Shown: positions 10,693-25,268 of the stretch, in pieces
How positions within the stretch are numbered: position 1 is the first letter of the stretch
How the letters are laid out: the number at the start of each line of letters is the position of its first letter
Assembly: GCF_900176375.1 (NCBI RefSeq)
Contig: NZ_FWYF01000001.1
Coordinates: 1,062,449 to 1,126,448 of the forward strand
Direction of reading: 5' to 3'
DNA length: 64,000 nt
Source of the DNA: Reichenbachiella faecimaris
Lineage (GTDB): Bacteria > Bacteroidota > Bacteroidia > Cytophagales > Cyclobacteriaceae
Notes under the pieces: model-generated
What the model saw: the letters and a program-made list of their open reading frames with translations, nothing else
Database searches by the model: none
What the model was told of the DNA's origin: nothing
Translations under genes and position numbers: made by a program

Positions 10693-10710
10693 TTGTGGCC
10701 CCTCCAGGAA
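10693..10710. repeat. Distal att direct repeat of the integrative element (ttgtggcccctccaggaa), a copy of the tRNA-Arg 3-prime end
   Basis: It is an exact 18-bp match to 25194..25211, which overlaps the 3-prime acceptor arm of the tRNA at 25197..25268. Confidence 0.7.
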
Positions 10711-10852
10711 ACCGTAAATATTTGAAACTCAGCTTAAAACCAGAATTTAGAAAAAAAATAATCAAACATTTCCATTAATTAGGTTATTCTCATTGTGGGA
10801 AGAAACGTTCTCTTAGACAATAAAACTCCAAAAACTTAATCAAGAACAACTT

Positions 10853-10889
10853 ATTAAACTAAATTACGTACAACATATTAAACTAAATT
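10853..10889 (+). promoter_or_regulatory. Pair of 13-bp direct repeats (attaaactaaatt) upstream of the Fic gene, a candidate operator or promoter element
   Basis: Copies are at 10853..10865 and 10877..10889, about 40 bp upstream of the ATG at 10931. Confidence 0.25.
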
Positions 10890-10930
10890 TAACGCATCAA
10901 TAAATACTTAAATAAACACAAACCTTATCA

Positions 10931-12466
10931 ATGGCACTACCATCCGAAAAATTAGCACAATCTCTGGAAGTTCTGAAAGAAATACAAAGCAATGGTTCGA
11001 AAACAATCAAAGCTAAAAACCTCACCAGAACACATAGAGAAAGGTTACTAAAACATGGCTTCATCAAAGAAGTAATGAAAGGATGGTATATATCTTCAAG
11101 ACCAGATGAAGTTCCAGGAGACAGCACAAGTTGGTACACCTCATTTTGGGACTTTTGTTCTAACTATCTAAATGATCGATTTGGAAATGAATGGTGCTTA
11201 TATCCTGAGCAATCTTTACTATTACACAGTGGCAACTGGACTATACCAAATCAATTATTGGTAAAAGCCACAAAAGGCCAAAATAATCAGACCACTCTCC
11301 TTTATGGAACTTCTATCTTTGACACAAGGCTTTCTTTGCCAGCCCATGACTCAATTATTGAAATTGACGGGCTTAAACTTAACACTCTGCCGTCAGCCCT
11401 AATCTCAATTTCTGAAAATTTCTATCGTCTACATCCGATAGATAGCCGAACCGCACTGAGCTTGATTAAAGATTCATCAGATATTTTAACGCTATTATTA
11501 GATGGGGGGCATTCGACAATTGCCGGCCGGCTAGCTGGTGCATTTAGAAATATAGGTAACGATCGTGTGGCAAACGACATAATCAAAACCATGAGGGCAG
11601 CTGACTATGACGTAAGGGAGACCGACCCATTTGAAGAAAAATTACAACATTCGATCAATACTAGAGAAGTATCTCCTTATGTACAACGTATAAAATTGCT
11701 CTGGCAGCAAATGAGAGATGAAATCATAGACATTTTCCCAAAAGCTCCTGATGTAAAGAACAAAGAAAGTTACCTGAAATTAGTTGAGGAACTTTATACA
11801 ACTGACGCTTATCACTCCCTATCCATAGAAGGATATCAAGTCACTTCAGAGCTTATAGAAAGGGTCAGATCCGGTAGTTGGAATCCCGATAGTAACGTAG
11901 AAGATCAGGATCAAAAAAATGCCTTGGCCGCAAGAGGCTACTGGCTAGCCTTTCAGTCCGTGAAAACAAGTATTGAAAAAATATTTGATGGTCAACCCCC
12001 AGGAGGAGTAGCTGATTTGGATCATGGAGATTGGTATCGGGCACTTTTTCAACCGAGTGTTGCTGCAGGTATCATAAAACCTTCAGATCTGGCAGGGTAT
12101 CGCAATAGCCCTGTTTATATCAAAAATTCTAAGCATGTACCATTGAACCGGGATGCCGTCCGAGATTGCATGCCAGTCTTATTCGAACTACTGTCGAATG
12201 AATCAGAAGCTTCGGTACGAGCCATTTTAGGACATTTTATTTTCACTTTCATTCACCCCTATATTGACGGAAATGGTCGAATTGGCCGCTTCTTGATGAA
12301 CGTAATGTTGGCCTCTGGGGGGTATCCATGGACAATTATTCCTGTAGAGAAAAGAAATGAATATATGAATGCTCTAGAAAAAGCCAGTATCAATCAAGAC
12401 ATTCAACCCTTTGCTCATTTTGTTTCTCAACAAGTAAAACTTATTAATTCATCAAATAAGCGTTAA
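10931..12466 (+). CDS. Fic family protein (class II, AMPylase-type Fic core with cis inhibitory helix) with an N-terminal ~260-aa AbiEi-like wHTH extension
   Basis: The canonical Fic motif HPYIDGNGRIGR is at 12254..12289. An (S/T)xxxE(G/N) inhibitory motif (SLSIEG) is at 11816..11833, upstream of the core. The N-terminal segment (LTRTHRERLLKHGFIKEVMKGWYISSRPDE) resembles AbiEi-type wHTH. Confidence 0.85.
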   Translation: MALPSEKLAQSLEVLKEIQSNGSKTIKAKNLTRTHRERLLKHGFIKEVMKGWYISSRPDEVPGDSTSWYTSFWDFCSNYLNDRFGNEWCLYPEQSLLLHSGNWTIPNQLLVKATKGQNNQTTLLYGTSIFDTRLSLPAHDSIIEIDGLKLNTLPSALISISENFYRLHPIDSRTALSLIKDSSDILTLLLDGGHSTIAGRLAGAFRNIGNDRVANDIIKTMRAADYDVRETDPFEEKLQHSINTREVSPYVQRIKLLWQQMRDEIIDIFPKAPDVKNKESYLKLVEELYTTDAYHSLSIEGYQVTSELIERVRSGSWNPDSNVEDQDQKNALAARGYWLAFQSVKTSIEKIFDGQPPGGVADLDHGDWYRALFQPSVAAGIIKPSDLAGYRNSPVYIKNSKHVPLNRDAVRDCMPVLFELLSNESEASVRAILGHFIFTFIHPYIDGNGRIGRFLMNVMLASGGYPWTIIPVEKRNEYMNALEKASINQDIQPFAHFVSQQVKLINSSNKR

Positions 12467-12554
12467 ATTTTACCCTAGATCTTATTAACTCTAATTATAT
12501 AGATCTTTACTTGAAGTATTAAATAATTTAGATGTACATAGACGAAAACCCAAC

Positions 12555-15500
12555 TTGATCAAATCAATTTTCTCCTTTCGAAACTTTAGTATAGCTTGTT
12601 ATACACTGTCGATAGTATTAGCTCTTATCTGGCACTTTTATTTTGATGGTGGTTTCGAGCCATTCACAGTACTCCCTTTGTTCGTTCTATCTTTAGCTGG
12701 ATATCTACTCAATAAGCACGCTAACAATATAAATCATGAACTTTTTTCAAATTTTCAGAACGAAATTAATGAAGCTGAAAATTTGTTCATTTCATATTTC
12801 ACCAGATCATGCATAAAAAGACTCGATGAAATCCAAAAGAGAATTGATACGTCTACCTTAACAGGGACACTTGGTACAACATTAAAAGCTAGGGCATTCT
12901 ATCTTAAAGGCCAATGCTATAGTCATATTGGAGACAATGACAATGGCTTTCCTTGTTTCCTTCAAGCAGCATCACTGAAAACGGACATAAAATATCTAGA
13001 AAGAAAATGCACCATCACATATCATGCTGGCGAAGAAAATAATGCACTTGAAATAGCCAATGACATTCTTGAACAAGACCCCTTAAATCCACGCGCAAAT
13101 GCAATAAAACTAATTATTGATAAAAACTTTGACATAGAAAGTATACATCCTTTCCTAAAAACGGATAAAACATTTAATCAAATATTCGGCAATATAGTAT
13201 CGAAACAATATCAGATAAATATTGACAAAAAACTTATCGATCTGGAATCTATAATAGTGCCAGATACCTTAAGTTCAGAAGACTATCACTATTGGGTATT
13301 TATCCTTTCGCATAGTTATTCAAAATTCTTACAAGAAAATCCGCTGGTATATTCAAAGCCAAATCCTGATAAATTAAACTCCTCAACTTCCCTTATTTCA
13401 AATATTAGTTCAATTTCAGAAATCATTCTTAATGCCACGAAAAATTCTGAACTAATTGAACAAAGTCAAACACTCAAATCTATTGAGTTTATTAGCCTTC
13501 ATATAAAATATTTACTTTATCAAGATTCAAATATCCCCAACAAAATGGTTAAAGTTATAACTCAAGAAGGCTATGTAATTAGTGAAAATGAGTTTATAAC
13601 AACAATTGCTCTATTGGGAAAGGTCAAGCTTCCAGAAATGATACTGAATTTTAAAAATCATGATTACGTCAAAAAATTAAATCTAGAAGTAATTTTCGCT
13701 CTGGCCTGTGTTGAAACGGAAGCAAAAGATGAGGCTATCAGTTTCTTTAAAGGATACATTCAAGGTTTAAACTTAGTTCAACGCTTTGCGGTTAAAAATA
13801 TCACATTGGCCATTGAATATTTTAGGCTTAACGATATTAATACAAGCGATTTATTTGACAATCAGCTAGCAACTAAAAAATATGAATATGAAGTAGATAA
13901 GCTTCTAATTAATATTGCTTGCAAGAAAGACCATATTCCAAATGAAGAATTAAAAAAACTAATTCTTTCCCCAAACCTTGAGCATAAATTACTCAGTATA
14001 GAAAACAAAGAATATTTATGTCTATGCTTAAATCAAATCGGTGAATTCGATGAGAGTAATAAACTTCTCATGGATGACTTAGACATTTCAAAAGAATCAT
14101 TAATGAGCTATCTATATTTAGATAATCTCTATAAAAATAGGAGCCAGTACGATGATTTGATAAAAGGGCTTGAATACTGGAGGTTAAATCATGCCCCCGT
14201 TTTTATATTGATGACCTATGAAATCGAACTTCAGCATACCCTTAGAAACTATGAGAAACTGGAAGAAGTATGTAATTACGGATTAGTACACTACCAAAGC
14301 TACAAAACAACCCTAATATACTATTTAATAATTGCATTAAATGGTGAATCACACAAGATTGATACCCTGAAAAAACTCCTAAACGAGGACGCATTGAGTT
14401 GTGATTTCAGTTGGCAAATGGCGTTTCATGTAGCACGCATTTGCTTAAATCATGAGTTTTACGAAATTGGATTTGAACTAGCTTACAGGAAAACTAAGAG
14501 CCGACCAGACAATATTCAAATAAAACAACATTATTTCGCATTAGTTGCGCAATTTTTAGACTCTTCTAAAATCACTGATCCCGGCAAAGTAGAGCTCGAT
14601 TCATCAGTAATTCTAATAGGAGAAAAAAGTAAACATATTATCCATATTAATGCCGACACTATATCTGGAAATAAAATTGTTCGTGAAATTCTAAACCAGA
14701 AAGCTGGCTTTTCCTTTATTAATAAGGACGAAGCCACGAATCAAAGTCGTGAATTGACCATTGAAAAGGTGGTAAATAAATATTCAGGTTTAATGACAGA
14801 AATCATGAATGAAATTTCATCTACGAGCAAGTCATTAGGGTATGACATAATATCTGTAACATACAAACAAGATGATATTGATTCAATTAATAGAGTCCTT
14901 TCCAATAGTTTCGGTAAAATGGGTGATAAAAGACAGATCATTCAAGGAAACGCCTTTAGCAGTTTCAATTCGGGAAAAATTAGTTTCACAAAATTGGTAC
15001 TAAATGTGAATTCATCAAGTTCAATAGAGATTTATCGTTCCTTGATAAGCGACTCTACTGCCAGTATTCATATTGTACCGAAGTCGTTATTTAATCAAGC
15101 AGATTTTTCTAAAGTAACTGAATATGTCCTTGATATCACCTCTTTGTTGATCCTTTCAAAATTAAAACCCAAAATCGACAGCGAAAATATAACTCTACTG
15201 GTGTCTCAAATATTGATAGATTATTTAGAATTCAAGACACAAGAGGTAAGACATATGCCCGATGAGGCTATGAATCTAAATATTACCTCTCTGGGCGTTC
15301 AACCATTCTTCTACCCTGAAAACTATAGAGCAGAATTGCTAAAGCAACTTTCAAATTTGACAAGTTGGATATCTGAAAATTGTAAAATTGAGTTTGCACC
15401 TGACAAGCTGGACTTACTTATGAAAGACCCTACATTGCTTGATAGAGAAGATTGGCATTTTCAACTTTGTTTGGATAATCTGCTAATAGCAAATAGACCA

Positions 15501-16031
15501 AATAGGTCTATTATCTCAGATGATCTAATGTACTTTCAAGAAAAACGGCCTTTCACTAACCCTCTTAGTGTCGAACACTTTCTCAGGATTCATAAACCAG
15601 ACCAATTAAGAGAGTACCAGCTCAGCTTACTCGAATTTAACCAGGTAGGATTGACATTAGATTCTAAGGTAATAACGCAGTGTTTCGAAGAAAACCCGAT
15701 GATTGAATCATCAAATAACCTCTTCAGAAAAGCAGTTAACAACTTATCATTTCATAAACATGGTGATCCAAACCTAATTTATGAGGTAATAGTTACCGTA
15801 AAAAACATTTACTTACTCGAATTGGAAAGGGGTTTCAAGCAGAGATTAGCTCAAACCTTGTTTACTGAAGCTTTAAAAGGTTACCCAATTACACTTAACT
15901 CTGGCACTAAATTTAGTGAATTTATCAAAAAGGAATTTTGCCTAATGGGAGACATTGGTCTCGACGTTATCGATGCGCTAACCAAGTCATTAGAAATTCT
16001 AAACAAATCAAGAAATCTTGCAGCAGACTAA
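12555..16031 (+). CDS. Large (1158 aa) membrane-anchored alpha-helical repeat (TPR-like) protein of unknown function, co-oriented downstream of Fic
   Basis: The ORF is long and uninterrupted with a TTG start and no in-frame ATG for >300 codons. Two N-terminal hydrophobic helices are present. The remainder is helical, Leu/Ile/Lys/Asn-rich, without a Walker A or other recognisable catalytic motif. It lies 88 bp after the Fic stop. Confidence 0.55.
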   Translation: MIKSIFSFRNFSIACYTLSIVLALIWHFYFDGGFEPFTVLPLFVLSLAGYLLNKHANNINHELFSNFQNEINEAENLFISYFTRSCIKRLDEIQKRIDTSTLTGTLGTTLKARAFYLKGQCYSHIGDNDNGFPCFLQAASLKTDIKYLERKCTITYHAGEENNALEIANDILEQDPLNPRANAIKLIIDKNFDIESIHPFLKTDKTFNQIFGNIVSKQYQINIDKKLIDLESIIVPDTLSSEDYHYWVFILSHSYSKFLQENPLVYSKPNPDKLNSSTSLISNISSISEIILNATKNSELIEQSQTLKSIEFISLHIKYLLYQDSNIPNKMVKVITQEGYVISENEFITTIALLGKVKLPEMILNFKNHDYVKKLNLEVIFALACVETEAKDEAISFFKGYIQGLNLVQRFAVKNITLAIEYFRLNDINTSDLFDNQLATKKYEYEVDKLLINIACKKDHIPNEELKKLILSPNLEHKLLSIENKEYLCLCLNQIGEFDESNKLLMDDLDISKESLMSYLYLDNLYKNRSQYDDLIKGLEYWRLNHAPVFILMTYEIELQHTLRNYEKLEEVCNYGLVHYQSYKTTLIYYLIIALNGESHKIDTLKKLLNEDALSCDFSWQMAFHVARICLNHEFYEIGFELAYRKTKSRPDNIQIKQHYFALVAQFLDSSKITDPGKVELDSSVILIGEKSKHIIHINADTISGNKIVREILNQKAGFSFINKDEATNQSRELTIEKVVNKYSGLMTEIMNEISSTSKSLGYDIISVTYKQDDIDSINRVLSNSFGKMGDKRQIIQGNAFSSFNSGKISFTKLVLNVNSSSSIEIYRSLISDSTASIHIVPKSLFNQADFSKVTEYVLDITSLLILSKLKPKIDSENITLLVSQILIDYLEFKTQEVRHMPDEAMNLNITSLGVQPFFYPENYRAELLKQLSNLTSWISENCKIEFAPDKLDLLMKDPTLLDREDWHFQLCLDNLLIANRPNRSIISDDLMYFQEKRPFTNPLSVEHFLRIHKPDQLREYQLSLLEFNQVGLTLDSKVITQCFEENPMIESSNNLFRKAVNNLSFHKHGDPNLIYEVIVTVKNIYLLELERGFKQRLAQTLFTEALKGYPITLNSGTKFSEFIKKEFCLMGDIGLDVIDALTKSLEILNKSRNLAAD

Positions 16032-16079
16032 CAGACTCAGGAAGTTCTAATTGTCACCCATTTCTGATACTGTTAGCAA

Positions 16080-17252
16080 TTACAATAATGAATTACTCGT
16101 ATGAACTAACGTTCTCAAAAAGTGAATTTGAAAAAACCACAAGCAAACGCTATTAAAATGAGATAATTCGAGGTTTCTAATATTCTCAATTTCATTCTCA
16201 GGGCTAACACAATTACCATTAAACAGTAGGTTTTTAGCCAATTTTTCAGACAGAGCCCAATAATCATCCTGACGCAATAACACCCGGCCGGCAAACCTAT
16301 TTTTTAGTTTTTCAAAATCATTTTTAGAAATACCTTTGGTCAACCTATTCATTTCAGATTTTATCAATGCTATAGCTCTTTTGGTCTTTGATTTCTCTAC
16401 ATCAAATTCGAGGTAAAGAAGTCCACAATCGGAAAAACGGGGAGCATTCAGATCGATATCATAAATCAATTGATTTTCGACTCTCAGTCTTTGATAAACC
16501 CGATCCTCGAACATGCAAATGGCCAGCTGAATGTACAAATCATCTTCATGATCATATTTAGGTATTGGAAAACCTAAAATTACATGATCTGGATCTTCTG
16601 GCAGATTCGTTTTATCCCAAATTTCAAAGCTGTCGCAATAGTAAAATGCTTTTCTCACTCGGTGATTTGCCTCTAGTGATACTGTACCAAATGCATCATT
16701 AAACATGGCCTCTACTTCTGCATCTGGCAAATCCGAAATAATTGAGATTACCGCCCTCGATGTACTAAAGATCCTGGAATAAAATGCTGACATCTTATCA
16801 ACGCCAATCTTTTGAATACTGGCCTTTGTGCCAAGTATACTTCTCCCAAGGTCATGATTGCGAAAAAACAATTCGTAATACTCATCAATCATCTCATCTG
16901 ATTCGTCAATCTCACACAAAACGATCTCTTTTTCTCTTGAGACCATATCACTATCAATAGACAAGTCAAAAACCTCCTTTTTTAAAGAATCTAAACTTTG
17001 AGATAAGAATTGCTTAGGTACAACAAATTGGAAAGTCATTTCCTCATGACCGGTTCCTGCATCTAATTGTCCACCTCTCGCTTCAACTACTTCGCTGAGC
17101 TTTTGATTGGACATTATCAAATGCTCCAGAAAGTGGGCATAACCCTGTTCATCGCTTCTTTCATCCCTGCTACCAAACCCAAGAGTAAAGCAAACATAAA
17201 CACCCTGTATACCTGGGTTTCTTTGATAATATGCTTTTATCTCATTGGACAT
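16080..17252 (-). CDS. M16 family (pitrilysin/insulinase-type) zinc peptidase-like protein
   Basis: The inverted zinc motif HFLEH is at 17121..17135. The surrounding sequence, GSRDERSDEQGYAHFLEHL...EVVEARGGQLDAGTGHEEMTFQF, matches the M16 N-terminal signature (GSRhE..G.AHFLEHm...GG.lNA.T..d.T.Y). The track ORF starts with TTG at 17297. The likely ATG (MSNEIK) is at 17252. Confidence 0.7.
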   Translation of the reverse strand: MSNEIKAYYQRNPGIQGVYVCFTLGFGSRDERSDEQGYAHFLEHLIMSNQKLSEVVEARGGQLDAGTGHEEMTFQFVVPKQFLSQSLDSLKKEVFDLSIDSDMVSREKEIVLCEIDESDEMIDEYYELFFRNHDLGRSILGTKASIQKIGVDKMSAFYSRIFSTSRAVISIISDLPDAEVEAMFNDAFGTVSLEANHRVRKAFYYCDSFEIWDKTNLPEDPDHVILGFPIPKYDHEDDLYIQLAICMFEDRVYQRLRVENQLIYDIDLNAPRFSDCGLLYLEFDVEKSKTKRAIALIKSEMNRLTKGISKNDFEKLKNRFAGRVLLRQDDYWALSEKLAKNLLFNGNCVSPENEIENIRNLELSHFNSVCLWFFQIHFLRTLVHTSNSLL

Positions 17253-17312
17253 TGAAACCAACTTCTTATTACATATTATGAGATATAAACTATACAATGA
17301 TCAGTACTAGGT

Positions 17313-17978
17313 TTATTGTAAGTATTCATGCATCAATCGAGTTGTCTTATTAATAAGGCCAGCTAAATTATCCTCCAAGAATCCATTATAATTTGAAACT
17401 GGTCTTTGAATCATGACATTAGCCATTTCTTCTACATTTAAATTGTGCTCTGGCAAGAATTTGGAAATCAGAATTGAACTTTCCAAGGGATGATTTATCA
17501 AATCTTCAAAATTGATTATTAAGATTGGCATCTTATAATCTTTTAAACTTTGAAGTGTGGAAAAAGTCATTCTTTCTATATCGGACACATCAACCAATTG
17601 AGACTTCAATTTTAATAAATCAACTTTCGGGTCATTAGTCTTTTCTTTATCCTTAAGAAGACCGAATAGTAAGTTCGAGACTTTTTTTATACTCTTAGAT
17701 TGTTCTTTTGAGTTTCTCAATACCCAAATAAATTTATAAGAATATCCCTTTGGCAAGTTCAAACAAAACGGAAATAATACCTTGACAGCTGCACCTTTGC
17801 ATTCATTTAGCCAAGAGGATTTTTCGGGCAATGCCATCTGTAAAGGAGATTCAAAAAAGGGATGAAACTTAGGATCAACAAAAACAGGAAGTCCTCCTTG
17901 ATTCAGCATTTTCATTAATAAAGAAGATCCACATCTTCCCATTCCCGTAACTACAGTAATAGAATTTTTAACTTTCAT
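17313..17978 (-). CDS. Small P-loop protein, sulfotransferase-family-like
   Basis: An N-terminal P-loop-like VVTGMGRCGSSLLMKML is at 17922..17945, resembling the 5-prime-PSB motif of bacterial sulfotransferases. A possible 3-prime-PB-like WVLRNSKEQ follows. The gene ends 15 bp before the M16 gene start, so the two form an operon. Confidence 0.4.
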   Translation of the reverse strand: MKVKNSITVVTGMGRCGSSLLMKMLNQGGLPVFVDPKFHPFFESPLQMALPEKSSWLNECKGAAVKVLFPFCLNLPKGYSYKFIWVLRNSKEQSKSIKKVSNLLFGLLKDKEKTNDPKVDLLKLKSQLVDVSDIERMTFSTLQSLKDYKMPILIINFEDLINHPLESSILISKFLPEHNLNVEEMANVMIQRPVSNYNGFLEDNLAGLINKTTRLMHEYLQ

Positions 17979-18100
17979 GATTTTGAGATTATATTTTTTA
18001 TTAATTACAATTTCAGGTTAGATCAACCAACTATTAAAAACCTGAATTCTTTCTTCTTCAATATCTGCCAACACAGAATTGGCATTAGAATGTCTTAAAT

Positions 18101-19117
18101 TTATTCCTGAGACAGAATATTTGACGCTAAAATTGATTTGCCGAGGGAATACTCAAGGCTATCCTTAAGATCCAGATCTAAGCACAGACGTTTATGGTCT
18201 GACCACCAATCATTTTTCACATGTTCCTGGATTGATTCAACTGTTAATCTCAACCTTTCTAATAGCTCATTTTCTTCTGGAATATCATCATATAAATCGT
18301 TGAATTCTCCTAACGCTGACACTGCATTGATTTTATTAAGTAGGGAGTCGCAAGCTTCAACTGTTAATTTTTGATCTTGTAAACTGAGTATTTCAACAAT
18401 TAGAGATTTAAAATCTCCGGTAAATTGAAGATTGGCATTGCCTTTTTCATCGAAGTCCTCTTTCTCTAAAATAACCTCAATTTGAAACTGGTCTGATAAT
18501 GTAATAACATCAGAGTGAAGATTGGTTTCCAAGCGTTTAATCTTCATATTCTCAAACCTTTCGATAAATCTGGTAGCCTGGTTCCAAATTAGATTCTCTG
18601 TGTATTGATCAGCATCATAATCATAAATGTCCTCAACAGCATCTTGGATATCTTCAAGACTATTTATGTAATGATCGGTTTCCTCCAGTTTATGCGCATA
18701 CTCAGGAGGTAGCTCTATCAATCGTCTCAAAACTTTCTTAAAGCCTTTCAAGGCAATTCTTTTTTTCTTGCGCAACTCTATTGCCGCAGAATTTAGTAAG
18801 TCATTTGAAGCTGAATTAGCGTCAAATTTAATGAGCTCCTTTTGTTCTTCTTGTGGTTCACTGTGAACTTGTTTGGGTTCATTTTCGACTTCCGTTGGTT
18901 CACTTTGGGATTCTACTAGTTCATTTTCCAATTGAGTCAGGGCTTCAATTTCATCATCCGAACTGAACTGATTGATCCATCTGTATATTGTGGCCTTCGA
19001 TACTTGTCCTTCTAGCTGGCGTTCAATTTCATTTGCGTTACGTCCTTCTTCAAATAACTTTCTGGCCTCTTCTCTTAATTCTTTATTTCCTTTCATGATT
19101 TCAGGTTTATAAAACAT
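18101..19117 (-). CDS. HTH-domain protein (N-terminal terminase-small-subunit-like or transposase-like HTH, acidic linker, C-terminal domain of unknown function)
   Basis: The N-terminus reads EGRNANEIERQLEGQVSKATIYRWINQ. An acidic E/Q-rich tract follows. The rest has no recognisable motifs. Confidence 0.45.
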   Translation of the reverse strand: MFYKPEIMKGNKELREEARKLFEEGRNANEIERQLEGQVSKATIYRWINQFSSDDEIEALTQLENELVESQSEPTEVENEPKQVHSEPQEEQKELIKFDANSASNDLLNSAAIELRKKKRIALKGFKKVLRRLIELPPEYAHKLEETDHYINSLEDIQDAVEDIYDYDADQYTENLIWNQATRFIERFENMKIKRLETNLHSDVITLSDQFQIEVILEKEDFDEKGNANLQFTGDFKSLIVEILSLQDQKLTVEACDSLLNKINAVSALGEFNDLYDDIPEENELLERLRLTVESIQEHVKNDWWSDHKRLCLDLDLKDSLEYSLGKSILASNILSQE

Positions 19118-19181
19118 GAAACAAATGAATAATATCGGATCTGATTTGGTTTTTAGAATTTTTGCATTCTTGCATTAATTT

Positions 19182-19406
19182 TCATTCCCTTTCCATCTTT
19201 TTCTCATATTCCCATTCAATATCCAGGTGTTTGAGCAGTTTTATCATCTGGCCGCTGGAAATCAACCCCCTTTTCTTTATGTTAATTTCAGACCTAGAAT
19301 TGACAGCACTCTCAATCGATTTTCTCAATGTGGGTTGTGATACACCTAACATATCAGCCAATTCTTTACGGTTGAAAAAGTTTTTATTGTTTGGAAGTAT
19401 AACCAT
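19182..19406 (-). CDS. Small HTH DNA-binding protein (AlpA/excisionase or regulator-like)
   Basis: It is 74 aa with FNRKELADMLGVSQPTLRKSIE as the HTH. It sits immediately downstream of the iteron region. Confidence 0.5.
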   Translation of the reverse strand: MVILPNNKNFFNRKELADMLGVSQPTLRKSIESAVNSRSEINIKKRGLISSGQMIKLLKHLDIEWEYEKKMERE

Positions 19407-19494
19407 AATTCAGTGCTGGAGCTGAGATATTATTTTGTGGCCTTGTTTAGCTGACGAAAACTGATTTGCGTCTCATGTAGCAATTTTAAAAAAT

Positions 19495-19750
19495 GCGTAG
19501 TTTTTGTAGTTTTCGTCGTTTCGAGAAATAACAAATTGATTATCAAATAATTAGGCAAGTTAAAAAAACTACAAAGCAAAAATATGTGTGTAGTTTTTTG
19601 TAGTAATGGATTCCAATTATATTGGATAAAAACTACGTATACTACATTTTTAAAATAGGAATGTAGTTTTGTAGTACACCCAAATACATCATTATTGAAT
19701 GTATAGGGCTTATTTTTAGGAAAAACTACAAAAACTACAAAAACTACGTT
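19495..19750. repeat. Iteron array (at least 9 copies of AAAACTAC / GTAGTTTT in both orientations, including 3 tandem AAAAACTAC at 19721..19748), a candidate replication or transfer origin
   Basis: Examples are cgtagtttttgtagttttcg (19497-), aaaaaactacaaagc (19563-), gtgtagttttttgtag (19588-), aaaactacgtatactac (19629-), atgtagttttgtagtac (19661-) and aaaaactacaaaaactacaaaaactacg (19721-). The array is non-coding and lies directly upstream of the primase-helicase gene. Confidence 0.65.
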
Positions 19751-19803
19751 ATTTACAATCATGATATTAATAATCTAAAATTGCTTTGATTTCATATTCA
19801 GTC

Positions 19804-22134
19804 TTAAAATGGTAAATCAGTACTTTCGTCGGTATCATCGGATTCCTTTCTATTAAACTCTTCCAGTTCTTCTTCATTGAGCCATTCTTGTACGATAAAA
19901 TGGTAAGCTCTAGCCTTTTCATCTTTGTAGTATATCGTTGGAGCTACTCCAGGAATCGTTGAATCAACATTATTCCATCCAATGGGAATTTTTATATCTC
20001 TAGGATCGTTTGGCTTTAATTTTCTTTTGTCTTTGAGGTATGTTTTCAACTCAATAGTATCAACCTTATATTTTGACATTTTAGGATCGTTCAATACTTC
20101 CACTAAATGACTGATTGAATACTTTAGAACAGGTAATTTGAAAGTAAGAAACTGGTCTTTAATCCAATCTTCAAAAACTCTATCCAATCGGTTTTTGGTG
20201 GTTTCTACGATGATGCGAAATTGCTCAGTTTCGAACTGGTCAGGGCTAAACCAAAGCCTATCAGTTTTGTCGTGCGCCACTGATCTATTGGCGATGAAAT
20301 GAAGGAAAGCAGGAATTTCCTTTTTCAGCTTCATTTCCAGATCCGGGTCTTTGTCTTCTTTGGGTATCACTGGCACCCGTACCACAAACCAGCGGCTTTC
20401 GCCGTCCTCGATCTTCATCACACGGTCGGCATCGTTCGAGCAAATGATTAGCTTTCCATAATAGGCCGTTTTTTTCACGTCCATGCCTTTGATTTCCATA
20501 TAGGAGGTATCGGCCGTGGCGAGCTGCTTTAGTCGCTCTTTTTCCGCTTTCTTGTCTACTTCGAGAAAACCTTCGTCTATCGCAATGATGAATTTATTTA
20601 TATAATGGGCGTTGAATTTCATTTTGAATTGATCATTGCCCAGGATAGCCATGTTCGACCCGTAGATGGCCTGTAGCCATTTGAGGAAAGTACTTTTGCC
20701 TGTGCCGTTCTCAGGACTTACTAGAATAGGTACAGGAAGCATTTGTTTGGGTCGCTGAAACTGTAAAGTCAGGTAATCCAATGCCACAGTAAACTGATCG
20801 CCAATGATATTGTTTTCTATAGTGCCTTCGCCCTGGAAGATATGCCTTAGAAATTTGGCCGTATTAGGAAACTCCCCTTCTACAAGGTCATGGGTGAGCG
20901 GACTATAAAGGTTGTAGCAATCGTAATGCACTCGTTTATAGTTCTCATTCCAACACGGTTCACTACAGAAAGCATCGTATTTAGGCACGTTGTCCAGGAA
21001 GTCAGGAAAAAACTTGTAGTCACGCTGTATTTCTCCAATTTTCCATCGTATCAAATCTTCTTCAGGTTCACCGTATTTGTTTGGCGTGGTAATCACTTTT
21101 ACCCAATCAGGGCCTATACGCATATATTTTTCGGTGTCTTCGTGTCGGACATACTTCACAGCTTCACCGTTGAACTCATACCTTCGTTTTTTGAAGAGAA
21201 ATTCCCGTGATCCTATAAATGCCTTGTAGGTAGTGTAAAATTCGGTTTCGTTGCGCAGACCGAAGTAGGCATACATGCGCTGGAGCTTGCCATCGGTGAG
21301 AATGTGACCCGTGAAATACTTCTGTGCAAACTGAAATTTGAGCAGATCATTTTTGATTTCTTCTCGTGGCTTTCCGGCGGTGTATTTGCCCAGCAGATCG
21401 TCCAGCCCTTTGGCATCTTCCTGAATGTAGCGGCTGCGAATGTGCATAAAATACACATTGGTCAAAGCCACCTGGTCGTCGTCTAGTAGCAGCTCCACCG
21501 ATTCACGCAAGTACTTGACAGCACTATAAAAAGACTGCGGCCGCTGGCTTAGGTCTTTGTCTTTCTTCCAGTTGACTGTGAGGGTGTCGGCATCGGTGAG
21601 GTAGACCAGTTTTTCGACCTTGCAGACGGTAATGAGTTCGATTAGTTCGTGGTGTAATTCGCCTGGCATATCGCCGCTGTAGAATCCGTGTATAGATGGT
21701 AACCCTACGATATCAAATCCGCACGTATCGCCCATCCAGGCTTTAAATTCACCTTCGGTGAGTACCAAAGTATCAATGTTTTCTTTCTTGGCGTATTTAG
21801 CCAATATACCAGGAGGAAAAAACGGGTGATGTCCTGATCCTTTGGGCTGCCAGTACTTCATATCACCTTCAGGATTTTTCAATCGCTTTCTGCTGAAGGG
21901 TTCCGCCCATTTGTTGCCTGGCTTGGTGTATTTGACCCGTGACTTATTGAGCTTGAAATAATTGATTACAATATTGTCTTCGTCGTCGGTTTCGAAGTAT
22001 CGGTTTGATACCTCGATATCTTCATTCGAAATATGGCCTTTTCGTTTGAGGTTTACGACATTGTTTTGGTCGGTCACACCCAGCGCCTTCATGCGCTGCT
22101 CAAAATAGCTCTGATTATTTTTCAAAGACTCCAT
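19804..22134 (-). CDS. DNA primase-helicase (N-terminal Toprim, C-terminal P-loop NTPase of the VirE/D5-like type)
   Basis: Toprim motifs are LTEGEFKAW and YLTDADT (DxD). The Walker A is SPENGTGKST and the Walker B-like motif is IIAIDEGF. Size and architecture are typical of Bacteroidetes and phage-satellite pri-rep proteins. Confidence 0.75.
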   Translation of the reverse strand: MESLKNNQSYFEQRMKALGVTDQNNVVNLKRKGHISNEDIEVSNRYFETDDEDNIVINYFKLNKSRVKYTKPGNKWAEPFSRKRLKNPEGDMKYWQPKGSGHHPFFPPGILAKYAKKENIDTLVLTEGEFKAWMGDTCGFDIVGLPSIHGFYSGDMPGELHHELIELITVCKVEKLVYLTDADTLTVNWKKDKDLSQRPQSFYSAVKYLRESVELLLDDDQVALTNVYFMHIRSRYIQEDAKGLDDLLGKYTAGKPREEIKNDLLKFQFAQKYFTGHILTDGKLQRMYAYFGLRNETEFYTTYKAFIGSREFLFKKRRYEFNGEAVKYVRHEDTEKYMRIGPDWVKVITTPNKYGEPEEDLIRWKIGEIQRDYKFFPDFLDNVPKYDAFCSEPCWNENYKRVHYDCYNLYSPLTHDLVEGEFPNTAKFLRHIFQGEGTIENNIIGDQFTVALDYLTLQFQRPKQMLPVPILVSPENGTGKSTFLKWLQAIYGSNMAILGNDQFKMKFNAHYINKFIIAIDEGFLEVDKKAEKERLKQLATADTSYMEIKGMDVKKTAYYGKLIICSNDADRVMKIEDGESRWFVVRVPVIPKEDKDPDLEMKLKKEIPAFLHFIANRSVAHDKTDRLWFSPDQFETEQFRIIVETTKNRLDRVFEDWIKDQFLTFKLPVLKYSISHLVEVLNDPKMSKYKVDTIELKTYLKDKRKLKPNDPRDIKIPIGWNNVDSTIPGVAPTIYYKDEKARAYHFIVQEWLNEEELEEFNRKESDDTDESTDLPF

Positions 22135-22149
22135 CTATACATCTTTTCT

Positions 22150-22178
22150 AAAAAAAAAGCTGCCTTGAATAGGCAGCT
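22150..22178 (-). terminator. Rho-independent terminator (minus strand) after the 142-aa gene
   Basis: Read on the minus strand, the hairpin AGCTGCC-tattcaa-GGCAGCT is followed by a run of 9 T. Confidence 0.55.
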
Positions 22179-22185
22179 GTTATTA

Positions 22186-22614
22186 TCAACCAACATGTTC
22201 TAAGATCATCTTTTCAAGACTCGATGGTCGGCAGGATTGAGCGATCCTGGCAATGACATTAATCGCATCAAAACATTTTAATGGATCATCGCAATTGTCT
22301 GCAAAGTTCGAAGAAAGAATACTCATACTTTCTATCATATACTCATGAAACTCCAGCAACATGGGAGCTGTATCAAATTCATCAAAGTGAATTTCTATAG
22401 TGTCTTCCTTGCTATTAAGTGTCCTGAATATTGACCTGGCCAGCATCGAAAGAAAGGCGACTTTATCCAGTGTTTCTCTAGGTGAAATCTCGCTACCGTG
22501 AGCAGTAATTGTCTCTATGGCTTGAATTAATTGACTGTAGAACTCTTTCAGATCTGATCTGCTTTCTACACCGGGCATTTTTAATACCCAAGGATTTTTA
22601 GTAGGTTTACCCAT
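22186..22614 (-). CDS. Hypothetical protein (island backbone)
   Basis: It is a 142-aa ORF with an ATG start, good length and a terminator downstream. No motifs were recognised. Confidence 0.45.
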   Translation of the reverse strand: MGKPTKNPWVLKMPGVESRSDLKEFYSQLIQAIETITAHGSEISPRETLDKVAFLSMLARSIFRTLNSKEDTIEIHFDEFDTAPMLLEFHEYMIESMSILSSNFADNCDDPLKCFDAINVIARIAQSCRPSSLEKMILEHVG

Positions 22615-22696
22615 GGTTTATAAAATTTAGTAATGATTATTATATTCCAGTATGCGATAAAAAAATTAGCCCTTGTGTTACGCGCACAAGGGTTTC

Positions 22697-22978
22697 TTAT
22701 TCATCCTCTTCCAGAAAGTATCGATTGACTTCGCTCTCGGGGACATAGAGCTTTTTACCTCTCCGAATGACTTTAATCCTATTTTGATCTCTGAGTTGAT
22801 CAAACTTCCATCGACCAATTTTAGCTTGAAACATGAACTCAGATGCCGTTAAAAATTCTGGACGTGGCACCATTTTTAGATTTTCAAGTGCTCCTAAAAT
22901 CTTATTCTGATTTTCAATGAATTCTTCGAACCTTTCTGAAGGTAATTCAATTATTTGCTTGACTGATGAGCCTTCCAT
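22697..22978 (-). CDS. Excisionase-family HTH (HTH_17-like) DNA-binding protein
   Basis: The protein is 93 aa. LTASEFMFQAKIGRWKFDQL...IKVIRRGKKLYVPESEV matches the MerR-like excisionase HTH common in Bacteroidetes mobile elements. Confidence 0.55.
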   Translation of the reverse strand: MEGSSVKQIIELPSERFEEFIENQNKILGALENLKMVPRPEFLTASEFMFQAKIGRWKFDQLRDQNRIKVIRRGKKLYVPESEVNRYFLEEDE

Positions 22979-23066
22979 TTTCGTTTTATTATGAATGTTA
23001 CAGTTATTTCATAATTCAAACATAATGAGAATATATTGAAATGTGAATATTATCGTGAAATGTTTT

Positions 23067-23843
23067 TTATTTTTTCACGATTTCAAAAGTTCTTAGATAA
23101 TATTCACAAGTCTGCTGAAGTAACTCTATCTCTTCAGTTCTATAATCGGTACTCAAGAAATTTACAGACTCAATGGCATCCACTTGACACATTTCGTATG
23201 TTGTAATAATATTACCACTCCTTTGTGTTTCAAGCATTCTTTCTAACAAGGCAAAACCAACTTCAAACGGCTTAAGGATTTCTAGGTAAAAAGCAGTCTG
23301 TCCATTACTATCCGAAGAGATACTTCGAAGAGGTGTGAAAAATTCTGAAAACTTATTTGGTGTAGACAGAAGCTTGTATTTTACATCTGAGTAGCCACTT
23401 GAGACTAATTTGTCCTTCAATATAGCACCTAAGAAAAAGTCTACAGATAGAAAAATAGGATTCAAATAAATATCAAGTATACCCTTTACATTTAAGTCTA
23501 GTAGGTTTTCCCCCTTATCATAGAAATTTCTAAATATCTTTTGACAAAGCTCTACCTCCTTTTCAAGAGTATTACGAAGCATTTCTGATGGGTTTGAAAA
23601 TTGCTGCTCCGTTAAATATCCAAAATCCCAAAATTCAACGCTGCTAGAAAATTCTTGAATTGAATACTCATCGCGCTCTACATGTTCGGAGTATGACGCT
23701 AGGTGGCTTCTTATTTCAACTGGTTTATTATTATATCTCAGTCTAATATATAGCGGATACCTTGGATTATTATTTACGTCAACTTCCGGAGGGAGACGTT
23801 TATTCAAAAAATGTCTTACTGTAAACTTCTTTTCTCGAGCCAT
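23067..23843 (-). CDS. Hypothetical protein (island backbone, adjacent to the integrase)
   Basis: It is a 258-aa ORF ending 2 bp before the integrase start. No motifs were recognised. Confidence 0.45.
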   Translation of the reverse strand: MAREKKFTVRHFLNKRLPPEVDVNNNPRYPLYIRLRYNNKPVEIRSHLASYSEHVERDEYSIQEFSSSVEFWDFGYLTEQQFSNPSEMLRNTLEKEVELCQKIFRNFYDKGENLLDLNVKGILDIYLNPIFLSVDFFLGAILKDKLVSSGYSDVKYKLLSTPNKFSEFFTPLRSISSDSNGQTAFYLEILKPFEVGFALLERMLETQRSGNIITTYEMCQVDAIESVNFLSTDYRTEEIELLQQTCEYYLRTFEIVKK

Positions 23844-23845
23844 AA

Positions 23846-25036: not shown

Positions 25037-25193
25037 GGTTTATTCAAACCTATGACAAAAAAATGTGAAAACAAATGCGCAAACAAATACCAAAAACAAG
25101 CAACAATAAACAATTGAACAAACATCAAAAAACCTTGATTATTTACTAACAATCAAGGTTTTAGCTTTTGTTTGTATTTGCTAGATGTTGTTA

Positions 25194-25211
25194 TTGTGGC
25201 CCCTCCAGGAA
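25194..25211. repeat. Proximal att direct repeat (ttgtggcccctccaggaa) overlapping the tRNA-Arg 3-prime end
   Basis: It is an exact match to 10693..10710. Confidence 0.7.
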
Positions 25212-25268
25212 TCGAACCTGGATCTAAAGTTTAGGAAACTTCTATTCTATCCATTGAACTAAGGGGCC
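25197..25268 (-). tRNA. tRNA-Arg (anticodon CCT)
   Basis: The reverse complement folds as a cloverleaf. The acceptor is GGCCCCT/AGGGGCC, the D-arm GTTC...GAAT, the anticodon stem GAAGT/ACTTT with loop TTCCTAA (CCT), and the T-arm CCAGG-TTCGATT-CCTGG. CCA is not encoded. Confidence 0.8.

What the first reader, a model, noticed from the sequence alone, without database searches (positions are those of the whole stretch)
16080..17978. Cargo module 2: M16 pitrilysin-type peptidase operon-coupled to a small P-loop sulfotransferase-like protein, convergent to the Fic module
The 391-aa protein has the inverted zinc motif HFLEH and the downstream GGxLNAxT..E.T.Y-like block (GGQLDAGTGHEEMTFQF), so it is a bona fide M16 family member. 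Its stop is 15 bp from the start of a 221-aa protein whose N-terminus (GMGRCGSSLL) looks like a PAPS-binding P-loop. M16 proteases outside housekeeping contexts usually process a specific peptide substrate (RiPP leader cleavage, PqqF-like). A peptidase plus sulfotransferase pair on a mobile island suggests either a small modified-peptide pathway or a protease-based effector. No obvious precursor peptide ORF is visible in the 120-bp and 50-bp flanking gaps, which is itself worth checking.
Basis: partly seen in the sequence, partly recalled or inferred. Interest (0 to 1): 0.6.

Follow-up and report, generated by a model that had tools for sequence, protein, structure and literature searches.

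The report
Sulfotransferase cassette beside island M16 peptidase
A small sulfotransferase gene and a zinc peptidase gene lie side by side on a 14.5-kb mobile island, but related islands show the sulfotransferase is a swappable insert and not the peptidase's dedicated partner, so nothing supports a modified-peptide pathway.

Summary

The two genes lie in the cargo half of a tRNA-Arg island bounded by 18-nt repeats (10693..25211). The pairing does not look functional:
- 0 of 99 other loci carrying a gene of this sulfotransferase family have an M16 gene nearby.
- In a sister island (L002), homology breaks at the upstream gene's stop and resumes at the M16 start codon. An unrelated tail-anchored membrane protein sits in that slot.
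- A distant island (L104) has the same tail-anchored protein plus M16 arrangement.
- Synonymous divergence of the sulfotransferase is 1.7, against 0.3 for M16.
- There is no conserved precursor ORF and no transporter.

The nearest non-island M16 relatives sit in chromosomal core-gene neighbourhoods. The nearest sulfotransferase relatives lie in phage-like contigs, two of them in clear replication modules.

Verdict: the family assignments are right. The peptide-pathway reading is not supported. Interest is modest.

The parts
17313..17978 (-). 221-aa stand-alone sulfotransferase. It is a compact TPST-like member related to Pfam Sulfotransfer_3 and has no transmembrane segment. Family-invariant residues are G12, R15, G17 (5'-PSB loop), E43, K66, and R88...S96 (3'-PB motif).
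   Evidence: - ORF.
- Exhaustive phmmer: 1571 representatives at E<=1e-3.
- 37 of 38 aligned members hit Sulfotransfer_3.
- The family profile hits TPST1/2 at E 1.7e-6, with both PAPS motifs aligned.
- No hydrophobic segment.
- dN/dS 0.18 against L001.
16080..17252 (-). 390-aa M16B zinc peptidase, a single-subunit half-clamshell expected to work as a homodimer. It carries HFLEH 40-44, distal Glu114 within REKEIVLCE, and the Arg257/Tyr264 pair. It has no signal peptide or transmembrane segment.
   Evidence: - Pfam Peptidase_M16 6.7e-19 and Peptidase_M16_C 1.9e-21.
- Best solved relative is 3hdi (BH2405), E 5.6e-19, over residues 3-359.
- Motif positions.
- Motif definitions: PMC12731061.
- The start codon is fixed by homology.
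17254..18097 (-). Exchangeable cassette slot between the HTH gene stop and the M16 start. In this window it holds the sulfotransferase gene, a 122-bp upstream spacer and a 60-bp downstream spacer.
   Evidence: - blastn of L002 against the window gives about 85% identity up to window 18098, then no similarity, then about 90% identity from 17253.
- L002 carries an unrelated 184-aa tail-anchored protein in the slot.
- The 122-bp spacer is not conserved in L001, where the gap is 10 bp.
18101..19117 (-). 338-aa protein (331 aa from the second Met) with an N-terminal HTH, an acidic linker and a helical C-terminal part. It is a conserved island gene lying immediately upstream of the slot.
   Evidence: - Weak HTH hits only.
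- Homologues occur only in the related islands: 80% identity in L002 and 33% in L104.
10693..10710 (.). Distal copy of the 18-nt direct repeat TTGTGGCCCCTCCAGGAA. This is the island end far from the integrase.
25194..25211 (.). tRNA-proximal copy of the 18-nt direct repeat, overlapping the 3' end of tRNA-Arg(CCT) at 25196..25268(-).
23846..25036 (-). Tyrosine integrase of the island.
   Evidence: Pfam Arm-DNA-bind_5, Phage_int_SAM_5 and Phage_integrase.
19804..22134 (-). Primase/helicase of the island (DUF5906 / VapE-like / P4-type).
12555..16031 (+). 1158-aa TPR...PIN protein convergent to the M16 gene. It is a variable cargo gene, replaced in L002 by an unrelated 1258-aa protein.
   Evidence: PF20698 PIN-TPR-GreABC 2.3e-6. 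No similarity to the L002 protein.
10931..12466 (+). 511-aa Fic-domain protein, a cargo gene at the distal end of the island.
   Evidence: Pfam Fic 1.4e-10. PADLOC SoFic 6.6e-22.

Best explanation
The two genes are neighbours by cassette insertion, not a dedicated two-enzyme system.

The M16B peptidase is a fixed gene of a family of about 14-16-kb integrase/primase islands of Cytophagales. It always lies one gene downstream of a conserved HTH protein. The position between the HTH gene and M16 is an exchange slot.
- In two lineages, one of them distant, the slot holds a small tail-anchored membrane protein whose stop abuts the M16 start. That protein is the likelier native partner or substrate of the peptidase.
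- In this window and in L001 the slot instead holds a sulfotransferase gene. It is low in GC, and its nearest relatives sit in phage-like contigs.

Inferred mechanism:
- The sulfotransferase works on its own in the cytoplasm. It transfers sulfate from host PAPS to an acceptor not encoded next to it, as an accessory (moron-like) function of the island. Its acceptor class, whether a sugar, a lipid, a small molecule or a protein tyrosine, is unresolved.
- The peptidase forms a homodimeric clamshell that degrades or trims unstructured peptides. It serves an island function that does not require the sulfotransferase.

Shown: the family assignments, intact catalytic motifs, island boundaries, cassette boundaries and lack of co-occurrence.

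Inferred: independence of function, the acceptor class and the role of the peptidase.
For: 1. Co-occurrence. An M16 HMM finds no M16 within about 6 kb of a sulfotransferase-family gene in any of 80 genomic loci or 14 IMG/VR loci. None is listed in the 5 phage-like loci that hold the closest homologues.
2. Cassette boundaries. Homology between L002 and the window stops at the HTH stop codon and resumes at the M16 ATG. The L002 slot holds an unrelated 184-aa protein.
3. Distant island. L104/L105 shares integrase at 55%, primase at 59%, HTH at 33% and M16 at 28% identity. Its order is HTH, then a 135-aa tail-anchored protein, then M16.
4. The two slot proteins of L002 and L104 share a QYxxFLGE motif near the N-terminus and a C-terminal transmembrane helix. 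They abut M16, with gaps of 0 and 6 bp.
5. Divergence. For the sulfotransferase between window and L001, dS is 1.72. The flanking M16 has dS 0.30 and the TPR-PIN gene 0.28. The sulfotransferase allele was therefore exchanged independently of M16.
6. Composition. The sulfotransferase has GC 0.32, the lowest in the island. The chromosome is at 0.40-0.41.
7. The sulfotransferase-to-M16 spacer is 60 bp here and 37 bp in L001, so the genes are not coupled.
8. There is no conserved small ORF in the flanks and no exporter in the island.
9. Elsewhere the family sits beside ATP-sulfurylase/APS-kinase, glycosyltransferase, epimerase and flippase genes, or alone in phage-like contigs, two of which are replication modules.
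Against: - The sample of islands is tiny: window, L001, L002, and L104 (L105 is the same island).
- The window and L001 sulfotransferases are each other's only close relatives among 5.8 billion clustered proteins (59% identity, the next at 41%). Both lie next to this M16 lineage.
- Keeping that adjacency through an allele exchange could reflect selection for the combination.
- HTH, sulfotransferase and M16 are on one strand with short spacers, so co-transcription is likely.
- Homology of the two tail-anchored proteins rests on an 8-residue motif plus shared architecture (pairwise E 0.05).
- Monophyly of the island M16s cannot be shown by sequence. L104's M16 is as close to housekeeping M16s (27-30%) as to the window's (28%).
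- Nothing here measures activity or expression.
Confidence: 0.55

Rival explanations
1. Modular two-gene system. The island M16 peptidase works with whatever is encoded in the upstream slot. The tail-anchored membrane protein and the sulfotransferase are alternative partners. An example would be a protease-controlled effector or sensor used for phage exclusion or abortive infection, consistent with the defence-like cargo around it.
For: - The slot gene and M16 share a strand in all four islands and are tightly spaced: 0, 6, 37 and 60 bp.
- The island-type sulfotransferase clade is known only from this position.
- The surrounding cargo is defence- or toxin-like: SoFic-like Fic, HipBA and TPR-GreAB-C-PIN. 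A TPR-GreAB-C-PIN protein, Agp, acts in a demonstrated abortive-infection system (bioRxiv 10.1101/2024.11.07.622273).
- The middle of the sulfotransferase (residues 91-135) is only 13-30% identical between the two alleles.
Against: - A cytoplasmic sulfotransferase and a tail-anchored membrane protein have nothing in common that one protease could plausibly recognise.
- Neither gene hits any PADLOC model.
- The sulfotransferase family shows no link to proteases elsewhere.
- dN/dS of the sulfotransferase is 0.18 with saturated dS. That points to allele exchange rather than demonstrable positive selection.
Confidence: 0.22
2. One reading: a small sulfated-peptide (RiPP-like) pathway. The sulfotransferase sulfates a tyrosine of a precursor peptide and the M16 removes its leader, as RaxST and the RaxB peptidase domain do for RaxX, or as AlbE/AlbF do for subtilosin.
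For: - M16B enzymes do mature RiPPs (AlbE/AlbF, PqqF; PMC12731061).
- Sulfated RiPPs exist (raxX-raxSTAB; PMC4646787 and PMC6637879).
Against: - No precursor is apparent. The only ORF in the 122-bp upstream gap is 20 aa, and the whole gap is missing in L001, where it is 10 bp. The 48-bp and 60-bp gaps hold nothing.
- The island has no exporter, immunity gene or other tailoring gene.
- The pairing is not conserved.
Confidence: 0.06
3. The M16 is a life-cycle gene of the element. For example, it could be a protease that removes a repressor or processes a replication or transfer protein, analogous in logic to ImmA/ImmR of ICEBs1. The sulfotransferase would then be unrelated cargo inserted upstream of it.
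For: - M16 is conserved in position in every island of the family, directly after the backbone block of integrase, primase and two HTH proteins.
- The genes on both sides of it vary.
Against: - M16 peptidases enclose short unstructured peptides and are not known as repressor proteases (general knowledge of the family; PMC12731061).
- Its usual neighbour is a membrane protein, not a DNA-binding protein.
- dN/dS is 0.25-0.29, higher than for integrase and primase at 0.07.
Confidence: 0.1

Closest known systems
Prokaryotic single-subunit M16B peptidases of the YmxG/BH2405 type (PDB 3hdi)
   Same: - About 400 aa with Peptidase_M16 plus Peptidase_M16_C domains.
- HFLEH, a distal Glu and the R/Y pair are all present.
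- 3hdi is the best solved match, E 5.6e-19, over nearly the full length.
- There is only one M16 gene at the locus, so a homodimer is expected, as for BH2405 (PMC12731061).
   Different: - Only about 24-27% identical to any non-island homologue.
- Encoded on a mobile island, whereas the relatives lie in pnp/rpsO/truB or thrC core-gene neighbourhoods.
- Preceded in related islands by a tail-anchored membrane protein.
PAPS-dependent sulfotransferases of the Sulfotransfer_3 / tyrosylprotein sulfotransferase (TPST) type
   Same: - 5'-PSB loop (G-x-G-R-C-G-S-S against G-V-P-R-S-G-T-T) and 3'-PB motif (R88...S96 against R...S of TPST).
- Sulfotransferase fold.
- Homologues lie next to ATP-sulfurylase/APS-kinase genes.
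   Different: - About 195-220 aa against 275-330 aa for the solved domains, so most acceptor-binding elaborations are missing.
- The window protein alone scores below Pfam's cut-off (18.7 against 27 bits).
- The acceptor is unknown.
- This clade has an extra insertion (about residues 105-130) and an extra C-terminal helix.
raxX-raxSTAB sulfated-peptide cluster of Xanthomonas (PMC4646787, PMC6637879)
   Same: A bacterial sulfotransferase and a peptidase activity are encoded together.
   Different: - The rax cluster has a precursor gene (raxX) and an ABC exporter that carries the peptidase domain (RaxB) together with RaxA. None of these is present here.
- The peptidase here is a cytoplasmic M16B, not a transporter-borne peptidase domain.
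M16B pairs in RiPP or cofactor maturation (AlbE/AlbF for subtilosin, PqqF/PqqG)
   Same: The same peptidase family. NCBIfam gives a weak partial PqqF match of 44 bits against a 320-bit cut-off.
   Different: - Those enzymes sit inside clusters with a precursor and a radical-SAM or other tailoring enzyme, and are usually heterodimers of two M16 genes.
- Here there is one M16 gene and no such neighbours.
Variable cargo hot-spots of integrative elements, prophages and satellites (morons, defence hot-spots). This comparison rests on my own knowledge of the literature and was not checked here.
   Same: A conserved backbone with gene-boundary cassette exchange, low-GC inserts, and neighbouring toxin- or defence-like genes: Fic, HipBA and TPR-PIN.
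   Different: One cargo-side gene, the M16, is itself invariant between two variable slots. That is unusual for pure cargo.

Membership tests
MEROPS M16 (subfamily M16B) metallopeptidase | Inverted zinc motif HxxEH in the N-terminal domain | tested here: met
   HFLEH at residues 40-44, aligned to HFLEH of 3hdi.
MEROPS M16 (subfamily M16B) metallopeptidase | Distal zinc-binding Glu about 70-77 residues after HxxEH, in an R/K-E-x-x-V-x-x-E helix | tested here: met
   REKEIVLCE at 106-114. Glu114 aligns with the distal Glu of 3hdi once a 6-residue gap is allowed for (definition in PMC12731061).
MEROPS M16 (subfamily M16B) metallopeptidase | R/Y pair in the C-terminal (inactive) domain | tested here: met
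   R257-x6-Y264 (LRVENQLIY) aligns to LREKRGLCY of 3hdi and is invariant in the three island copies.
MEROPS M16 (subfamily M16B) metallopeptidase | Two-domain half-clamshell of about 400 aa (Peptidase_M16 plus Peptidase_M16_C) above Pfam thresholds | tested here: met
   68.7 and 77.2 bits against cut-offs of 22.3 and 23.
MEROPS M16 (subfamily M16B) metallopeptidase | Dimer formation and peptidase activity | not testable with these tools
   There is only one M16 gene in the island, so a homodimer is inferred by analogy with BH2405.
PAPS-dependent sulfotransferase (Sulfotransfer_3 / TPST-like) | 5'-phosphosulfate-binding loop | tested here: met
   The family profile VVaGlgRcGsslvmrmL aligns to IGGVPRSGTTLMRAML of TPST1. 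G12, R15 and G17 are invariant in 38 sequences.
PAPS-dependent sulfotransferase (Sulfotransfer_3 / TPST-like) | 3'-phosphate-binding motif R-x7-S | tested here: met
   R88 and S96 are invariant and align to MVRDGRASVHS of TPST1.
PAPS-dependent sulfotransferase (Sulfotransfer_3 / TPST-like) | Sulfotransferase fold rather than a nucleotide-kinase fold | tested here: met
PAPS-dependent sulfotransferase (Sulfotransfer_3 / TPST-like) | Score above the Pfam gathering threshold | tested here: not met
   The window protein scores 18.7 bits against a cut-off of 27, over the N-terminal loop only. Of 38 aligned relatives, 37 match Sulfotransfer_3 at E<=0.01, the best at 4.4e-12.
PAPS-dependent sulfotransferase (Sulfotransfer_3 / TPST-like) | Genomic link to PAPS supply | tested here: met
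   An ATP-sulfurylase plus APS-kinase fusion lies next to family members in 11 of 80 genomic loci. This was not testable for the host genome itself, and none lies in the window.
Tyrosylprotein sulfotransferase (peptide or protein acceptor) | Catalytic Glu/Lys constellation and a peptide-binding cleft equivalent to TPST | tested here: inconclusive
   E43 and K66 are invariant and could correspond to the TPST catalytic Glu and Lys (from memory), but they were not aligned by the profile search. TPST leads other sulfotransferases by a Z margin of only 0.6-1.6.
Sulfated RiPP cluster (raxX-raxSTAB type) | Adjacent precursor peptide gene | tested here: not met
   There is no conserved small ORF in the flanking gaps, and the 122-bp gap is absent from L001.
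Sulfated RiPP cluster (raxX-raxSTAB type) | Dedicated exporter or peptidase-containing ABC transporter | tested here: not met
   No transporter domain occurs in any island ORF that was scanned.
Sulfated RiPP cluster (raxX-raxSTAB type) | Sulfotransferase and peptidase co-inherited across homologous loci | tested here: not met
   0 of 99 other sulfotransferase loci carry an M16. Two of four island lineages carry the M16 without a sulfotransferase.
Catalogued anti-phage defence system (PADLOC-DB 2.0) | Match of either protein to a defence-system model | tested here: not met
   M16 has no hit. The sulfotransferase has only a 25-residue P-loop match to PDC-S01 at E 0.013.

The most novel reading that the evidence does not exclude
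The conserved block of HTH protein, slot gene and M16 peptidase is an undescribed protease-centred module of a family of Cytophagales integrative elements. In this reading the M16 processes or controls the product of an exchangeable upstream gene, either a tail-anchored membrane protein or a phage-derived sulfotransferase. The purpose would be phage exclusion, abortive infection or interference with a helper phage. It would be the first M16-based conflict system and the first role for the widespread but unstudied small phage-type sulfotransferases.
Probability: 0.15. Interest if true: 0.6.

Novelty: new member of a known kind. Interest (0 to 1): 0.3.

Why it matters
As found, this is mostly a clarification. 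Two divergent but recognisable enzymes sit next to each other because of cassette exchange, so the locus should not be listed as a candidate sulfated-peptide pathway.

Two smaller points may interest specialists:
- An M16B peptidase is a fixed, fast-evolving gene of a mobile-element family and is usually coupled to a tail-anchored membrane protein. No role for M16 enzymes in mobile-element biology turned up in the literature searches made here.
- A compact sulfotransferase family of about 195 aa has about 1,500 representatives at 50% identity. It includes many phage-borne copies, some in replication modules. Text searches found essentially nothing on phage sulfotransferases, and the acceptor is unknown.

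Tried and rejected
1. The word-indexed protein search made the 221-aa protein look like an orphan with 2 hits. The exhaustive HMMER search overturned that with 1571 representatives.
2. A direct PDB sequence search with the single protein gave only noise. The family profile was needed.
3. The first genome scan with the 38-sequence alignment failed for lack of a conserved stretch. It worked with 7 sequences.
4. Scans for further close M16 relatives found nothing. This covered two scans of JGI metagenomes and one of IMG/VR. The island primase in IMG/VR gave only distant primases without M16. The island family therefore stays at four lineages.
5. INPHARED phages have no sulfotransferase homologue by tblastn. 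Only distant M16 hits appear there, in unannotated gut contigs.
6. My first greedy ORF calling lost genes in high-GC loci, for example the known M16 of L003. I replaced it with six-frame stop-to-stop translation.
7. The sigma-70 promoter and terminator scan gave no more sites than shuffled sequence and no terminator. It is also not suited to Bacteroidota promoters.
9. The TTG start at 17297, which gives the 15-bp gap, was rejected.
10. Literature searches for sulfotransferase or M16 in phage defence found nothing relevant.
Full report
OBSERVATION

The window comes from Reichenbachiella faecimaris (Bacteroidota). Exact-match database proteins are named so.

Two same-strand ORFs occupy the reported interval. 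One is a 221-aa ORF at 17313..17978(-). The other is an M16 ORF ending at 16080, which is 405 aa from a TTG at 17297 or 390 aa from the ATG at 17252.

It also holds only for the TTG start. Three results fix the start at the ATG:
- DNA homology to a sister island begins at 17253.
- The three island homologues align from that ATG.
- NCBI calls a 390-aa protein.

The spacer is therefore 60 bp, or 37 bp in L001. The M16 stop faces the stop of a 1158-aa gene across 48 bp. Both genes are under purifying selection, with dN/dS of 0.18 and 0.25-0.29.

THE PEPTIDASE

Pfam gives Peptidase_M16 at 6.7e-19 and Peptidase_M16_C at 1.9e-21, well above the cut-offs. The best solved relative is the homodimeric M16B peptidase BH2405 (3hdi), at E 5.6e-19 over residues 3-359.

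All catalytic features listed in a recent family review (PMC12731061) are present:
- HFLEH at 40-44.
- The distal Glu114 in REKEIVLCE.
- The R257/Y264 pair.

There is no hydrophobic segment or signal peptide. It is thus a cytoplasmic, probably active, single-subunit M16B enzyme, not a pitrilysin-type M16A (NCBIfam pitrilysin 23 bits against a cut-off of 765).

It is also an outlier. Only three close copies exist in 5.8 billion clustered proteins, and the next hits are at most 27% identical. None turned up in JGI metagenomes or IMG/VR.

Four of the next-best homologues were looked up. Three sit in classic core-gene contexts: infB-rbfA-truB-rpsO-pnp-M16 twice, and thrC-M16 once. The fourth sits in a chromosomal stretch next to mutS.

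THE 221-AA PROTEIN

On its own it scores only 18.7 bits on Sulfotransfer_3, over the N-terminal loop and below the cut-off. The word-indexed search found one relative.

The exhaustive search found 1571 representatives at E<=1e-3 and 335 at E<=1e-10, mostly proteins of 185-225 aa. In a 38-sequence alignment the invariant residues are G12, R15, G17, E43, G62, K66, R88 and S96. Of those 38 sequences, 37 hit Sulfotransfer_3.

A profile of the alignment matches human TPST1/2 best (E 1.7e-6). It aligns both the 5'-phosphosulfate loop and the R-x7-S 3'-phosphate motif.

In 11 of 80 genomic loci a family member lies beside an ATP-sulfurylase/APS-kinase gene. Other recurrent neighbours are epimerase, GT2, flippase, ABC exporter and AlkP-type phosphodiesterase genes. 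The phosphodiesterase is often fused to TPR repeats and the sulfotransferase domain.

The sulfotransferase assignment is therefore sound. The acceptor is not resolved, because the margin of TPST over other sulfotransferases is small.

The closest homologues (38-41% identity) could be placed on contigs in four cases. All four lie in runs of small, unannotated, same-strand genes. Two of them are clear phage replication modules, with a RecE-like exonuclease, an O-like initiator, DnaB and thymidylate synthase. BFVD also holds small phage sulfotransferases.

THE SETTING

An 18-nt direct repeat at 10693-10710 and 25194-25211 brackets a 14.5-kb island. The second copy overlaps the 3' end of tRNA-Arg(CCT).

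From the tRNA end, the island carries:
- integrase, three small genes, and a DUF5906/P4-type primase
- an iteron-rich stretch and a small CI-like HTH gene
- a 338-aa HTH protein, the sulfotransferase and M16
- on the other strand, a TPR...PIN protein and a SoFic-like Fic protein

IS THE PAIR A UNIT?

Five lines of evidence say it probably is not.

1. Co-occurrence. An M16 HMM finds no M16 within about 6 kb of a sulfotransferase-family gene in 80 genomic loci or 14 viral loci. None is listed in the five phage-like loci.

2. Related islands.
- L001 is collinear with the window (sulfotransferase 59%, M16 86% identical).
- L002 shares the whole backbone at about 85% DNA identity. Similarity stops at the HTH stop codon (window 18098) and resumes at the M16 start (17253), running on at about 90%.
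- In between, L002 has an unrelated 184-aa protein with a single C-terminal transmembrane helix. Its stop codon abuts the M16 ATG.
- After M16 the islands differ again: an unrelated 1258-aa protein, and HipBA instead of Fic.

3. A distant island of the same family. L104/L105 comes from a Cyclobacteriaceae MAG and shares integrase at 55%, primase at 59%, HTH at 33%, M16 at 28% and Fic at 71% identity. It has the order HTH, then a 135-aa protein, then M16. That small protein is again tail-anchored, ends 6 bp before M16, and shares a QYxxFLGE motif with the L002 protein. The recurrent partner of the island M16 is therefore the tail-anchored protein. The sulfotransferase occupies that slot only in the window and L001.

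4. Divergence. Between window and L001, dS is 1.72 for the sulfotransferase. It is 0.30 for M16 and 0.28 for the TPR-PIN gene on its other side. The sulfotransferase allele was exchanged independently of its neighbours. Its GC content (0.32) is the lowest in the island.

5. Pathway components. Nothing else needed for a peptide pathway is present. The only ORF in the 122-bp upstream gap is 20 aa, and the gap itself is absent from L001. The 48- and 60-bp gaps are empty. The island has no exporter or further tailoring enzyme.

WHAT REMAINS OPEN

The sample is four island lineages. The island-type sulfotransferase clade is known only from this slot. HTH, sulfotransferase and M16 are probably co-transcribed.

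A modular reading, in which the M16 acts with whichever gene occupies the slot, cannot be excluded. It would fit the defence-like cargo around it. A TPR-GreAB-C-PIN protein (Agp) is a component of a demonstrated abortive-infection system (bioRxiv 10.1101/2024.11.07.622273). However, neither gene matches any PADLOC model.

Monophyly of the island M16s rests on synteny, not on sequence.

COMPARISON WITH KNOWN SYSTEMS

The peptidase meets every testable defining feature of M16B. The 221-aa protein meets the motif, fold and context criteria of PAPS-dependent sulfotransferases, although it falls below the Pfam threshold on its own.

The locus fails all three testable features of a raxX-raxSTAB-type sulfated-peptide cluster (PMC4646787, PMC6637879): a precursor, an exporter and co-inheritance.

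VERDICT

The most likely description is a phage-type sulfotransferase cassette inserted upstream of an island-conserved M16B peptidase, with the two acting independently (confidence about 0.55).

Novelty: new, divergent members of known enzyme families in an unremarkable cargo arrangement. The mobile-element-borne M16 with its tail-anchored partner is a modest open question.

Noticed in passing
window 19430-19762: Dense GTAGTTTTT / AAAACTAC repeats in both orientations lie between the small CI-like HTH gene and the primase gene. They look like iterons and may be the island's replication origin. The 110-aa ORF listed there is probably not a gene.
   Followed up: partly
window 12555-16031 (+): A 1158-aa protein with two N-terminal hydrophobic segments, TPR repeats and the PF20698 PIN domain of the TPR-GreAB-C-PIN type. 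The same architecture class occurs in Agp of the Bab/Agp amyloid-signalling abortive-infection system of E. coli (bioRxiv 10.1101/2024.11.07.622273). No Bab-like partner was looked for.
   Followed up: partly
window 10931-12466 (+); L104:14026-14553: The SoFic-like Fic protein is the best conserved gene of the island family. It is 71% identical in the distant island L104, where integrase is 55%, primase 59%, HTH 33% and M16 28%. The sister island L002 carries HipBA at this position instead.
   Followed up: partly
L002:7167-7721 and L104:11169-11576: Small tail-anchored membrane proteins (184 and 135 aa) lie immediately upstream of the island M16, with gaps of 0 and 6 bp. They share only a QYxxFLGE motif near the N-terminus and a C-terminal transmembrane helix. 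They hit no Pfam family. They are possibly the native partner or substrate of the M16.
   Followed up: partly
window 17313-17978, residues 91-135 of the protein: The middle of the sulfotransferase is only 13-30% identical between the window and L001, while the ends are 70-83% identical. The same segment is the low-confidence part of the model (residues 110-130) and is an insertion relative to the rest of the family. It could be the acceptor-binding region.
   Followed up: partly
L099, L100, L101, L102/L103 (metagenomic contigs): The nearest stand-alone sulfotransferase homologues (38-41% identity) lie in phage-like contigs. In L099 and L102 they sit next to a RecE-like exonuclease, an O-like initiator, DnaB and thymidylate synthase. 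The role of a sulfotransferase in a phage replication or nucleotide module is unknown.
   Followed up: partly
L025:4108-6582, L073:1261-3822, L019, L050: In 13 of 82 loci (window and L001 included), the same sulfotransferase domain is the C-terminal part of large fusion proteins. The order is AlkP-type phosphodiesterase/sulfatase-like, then TPR, then sulfotransferase. Bacteroidota examples are included.
   Followed up: partly
window 10832-10889: A 24-nt tandem repeat (2.4 copies, 85% match) lies between the distal att repeat and the Fic start codon.
   Followed up: no
window 17965-17993 and 19083-19111: The translation-start regions of the sulfotransferase gene and of the HTH gene (at its second Met, the NCBI start) share a 29-nt stretch at 76% identity, including AAATCATGAAAG. 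This may be chance.
   Followed up: no
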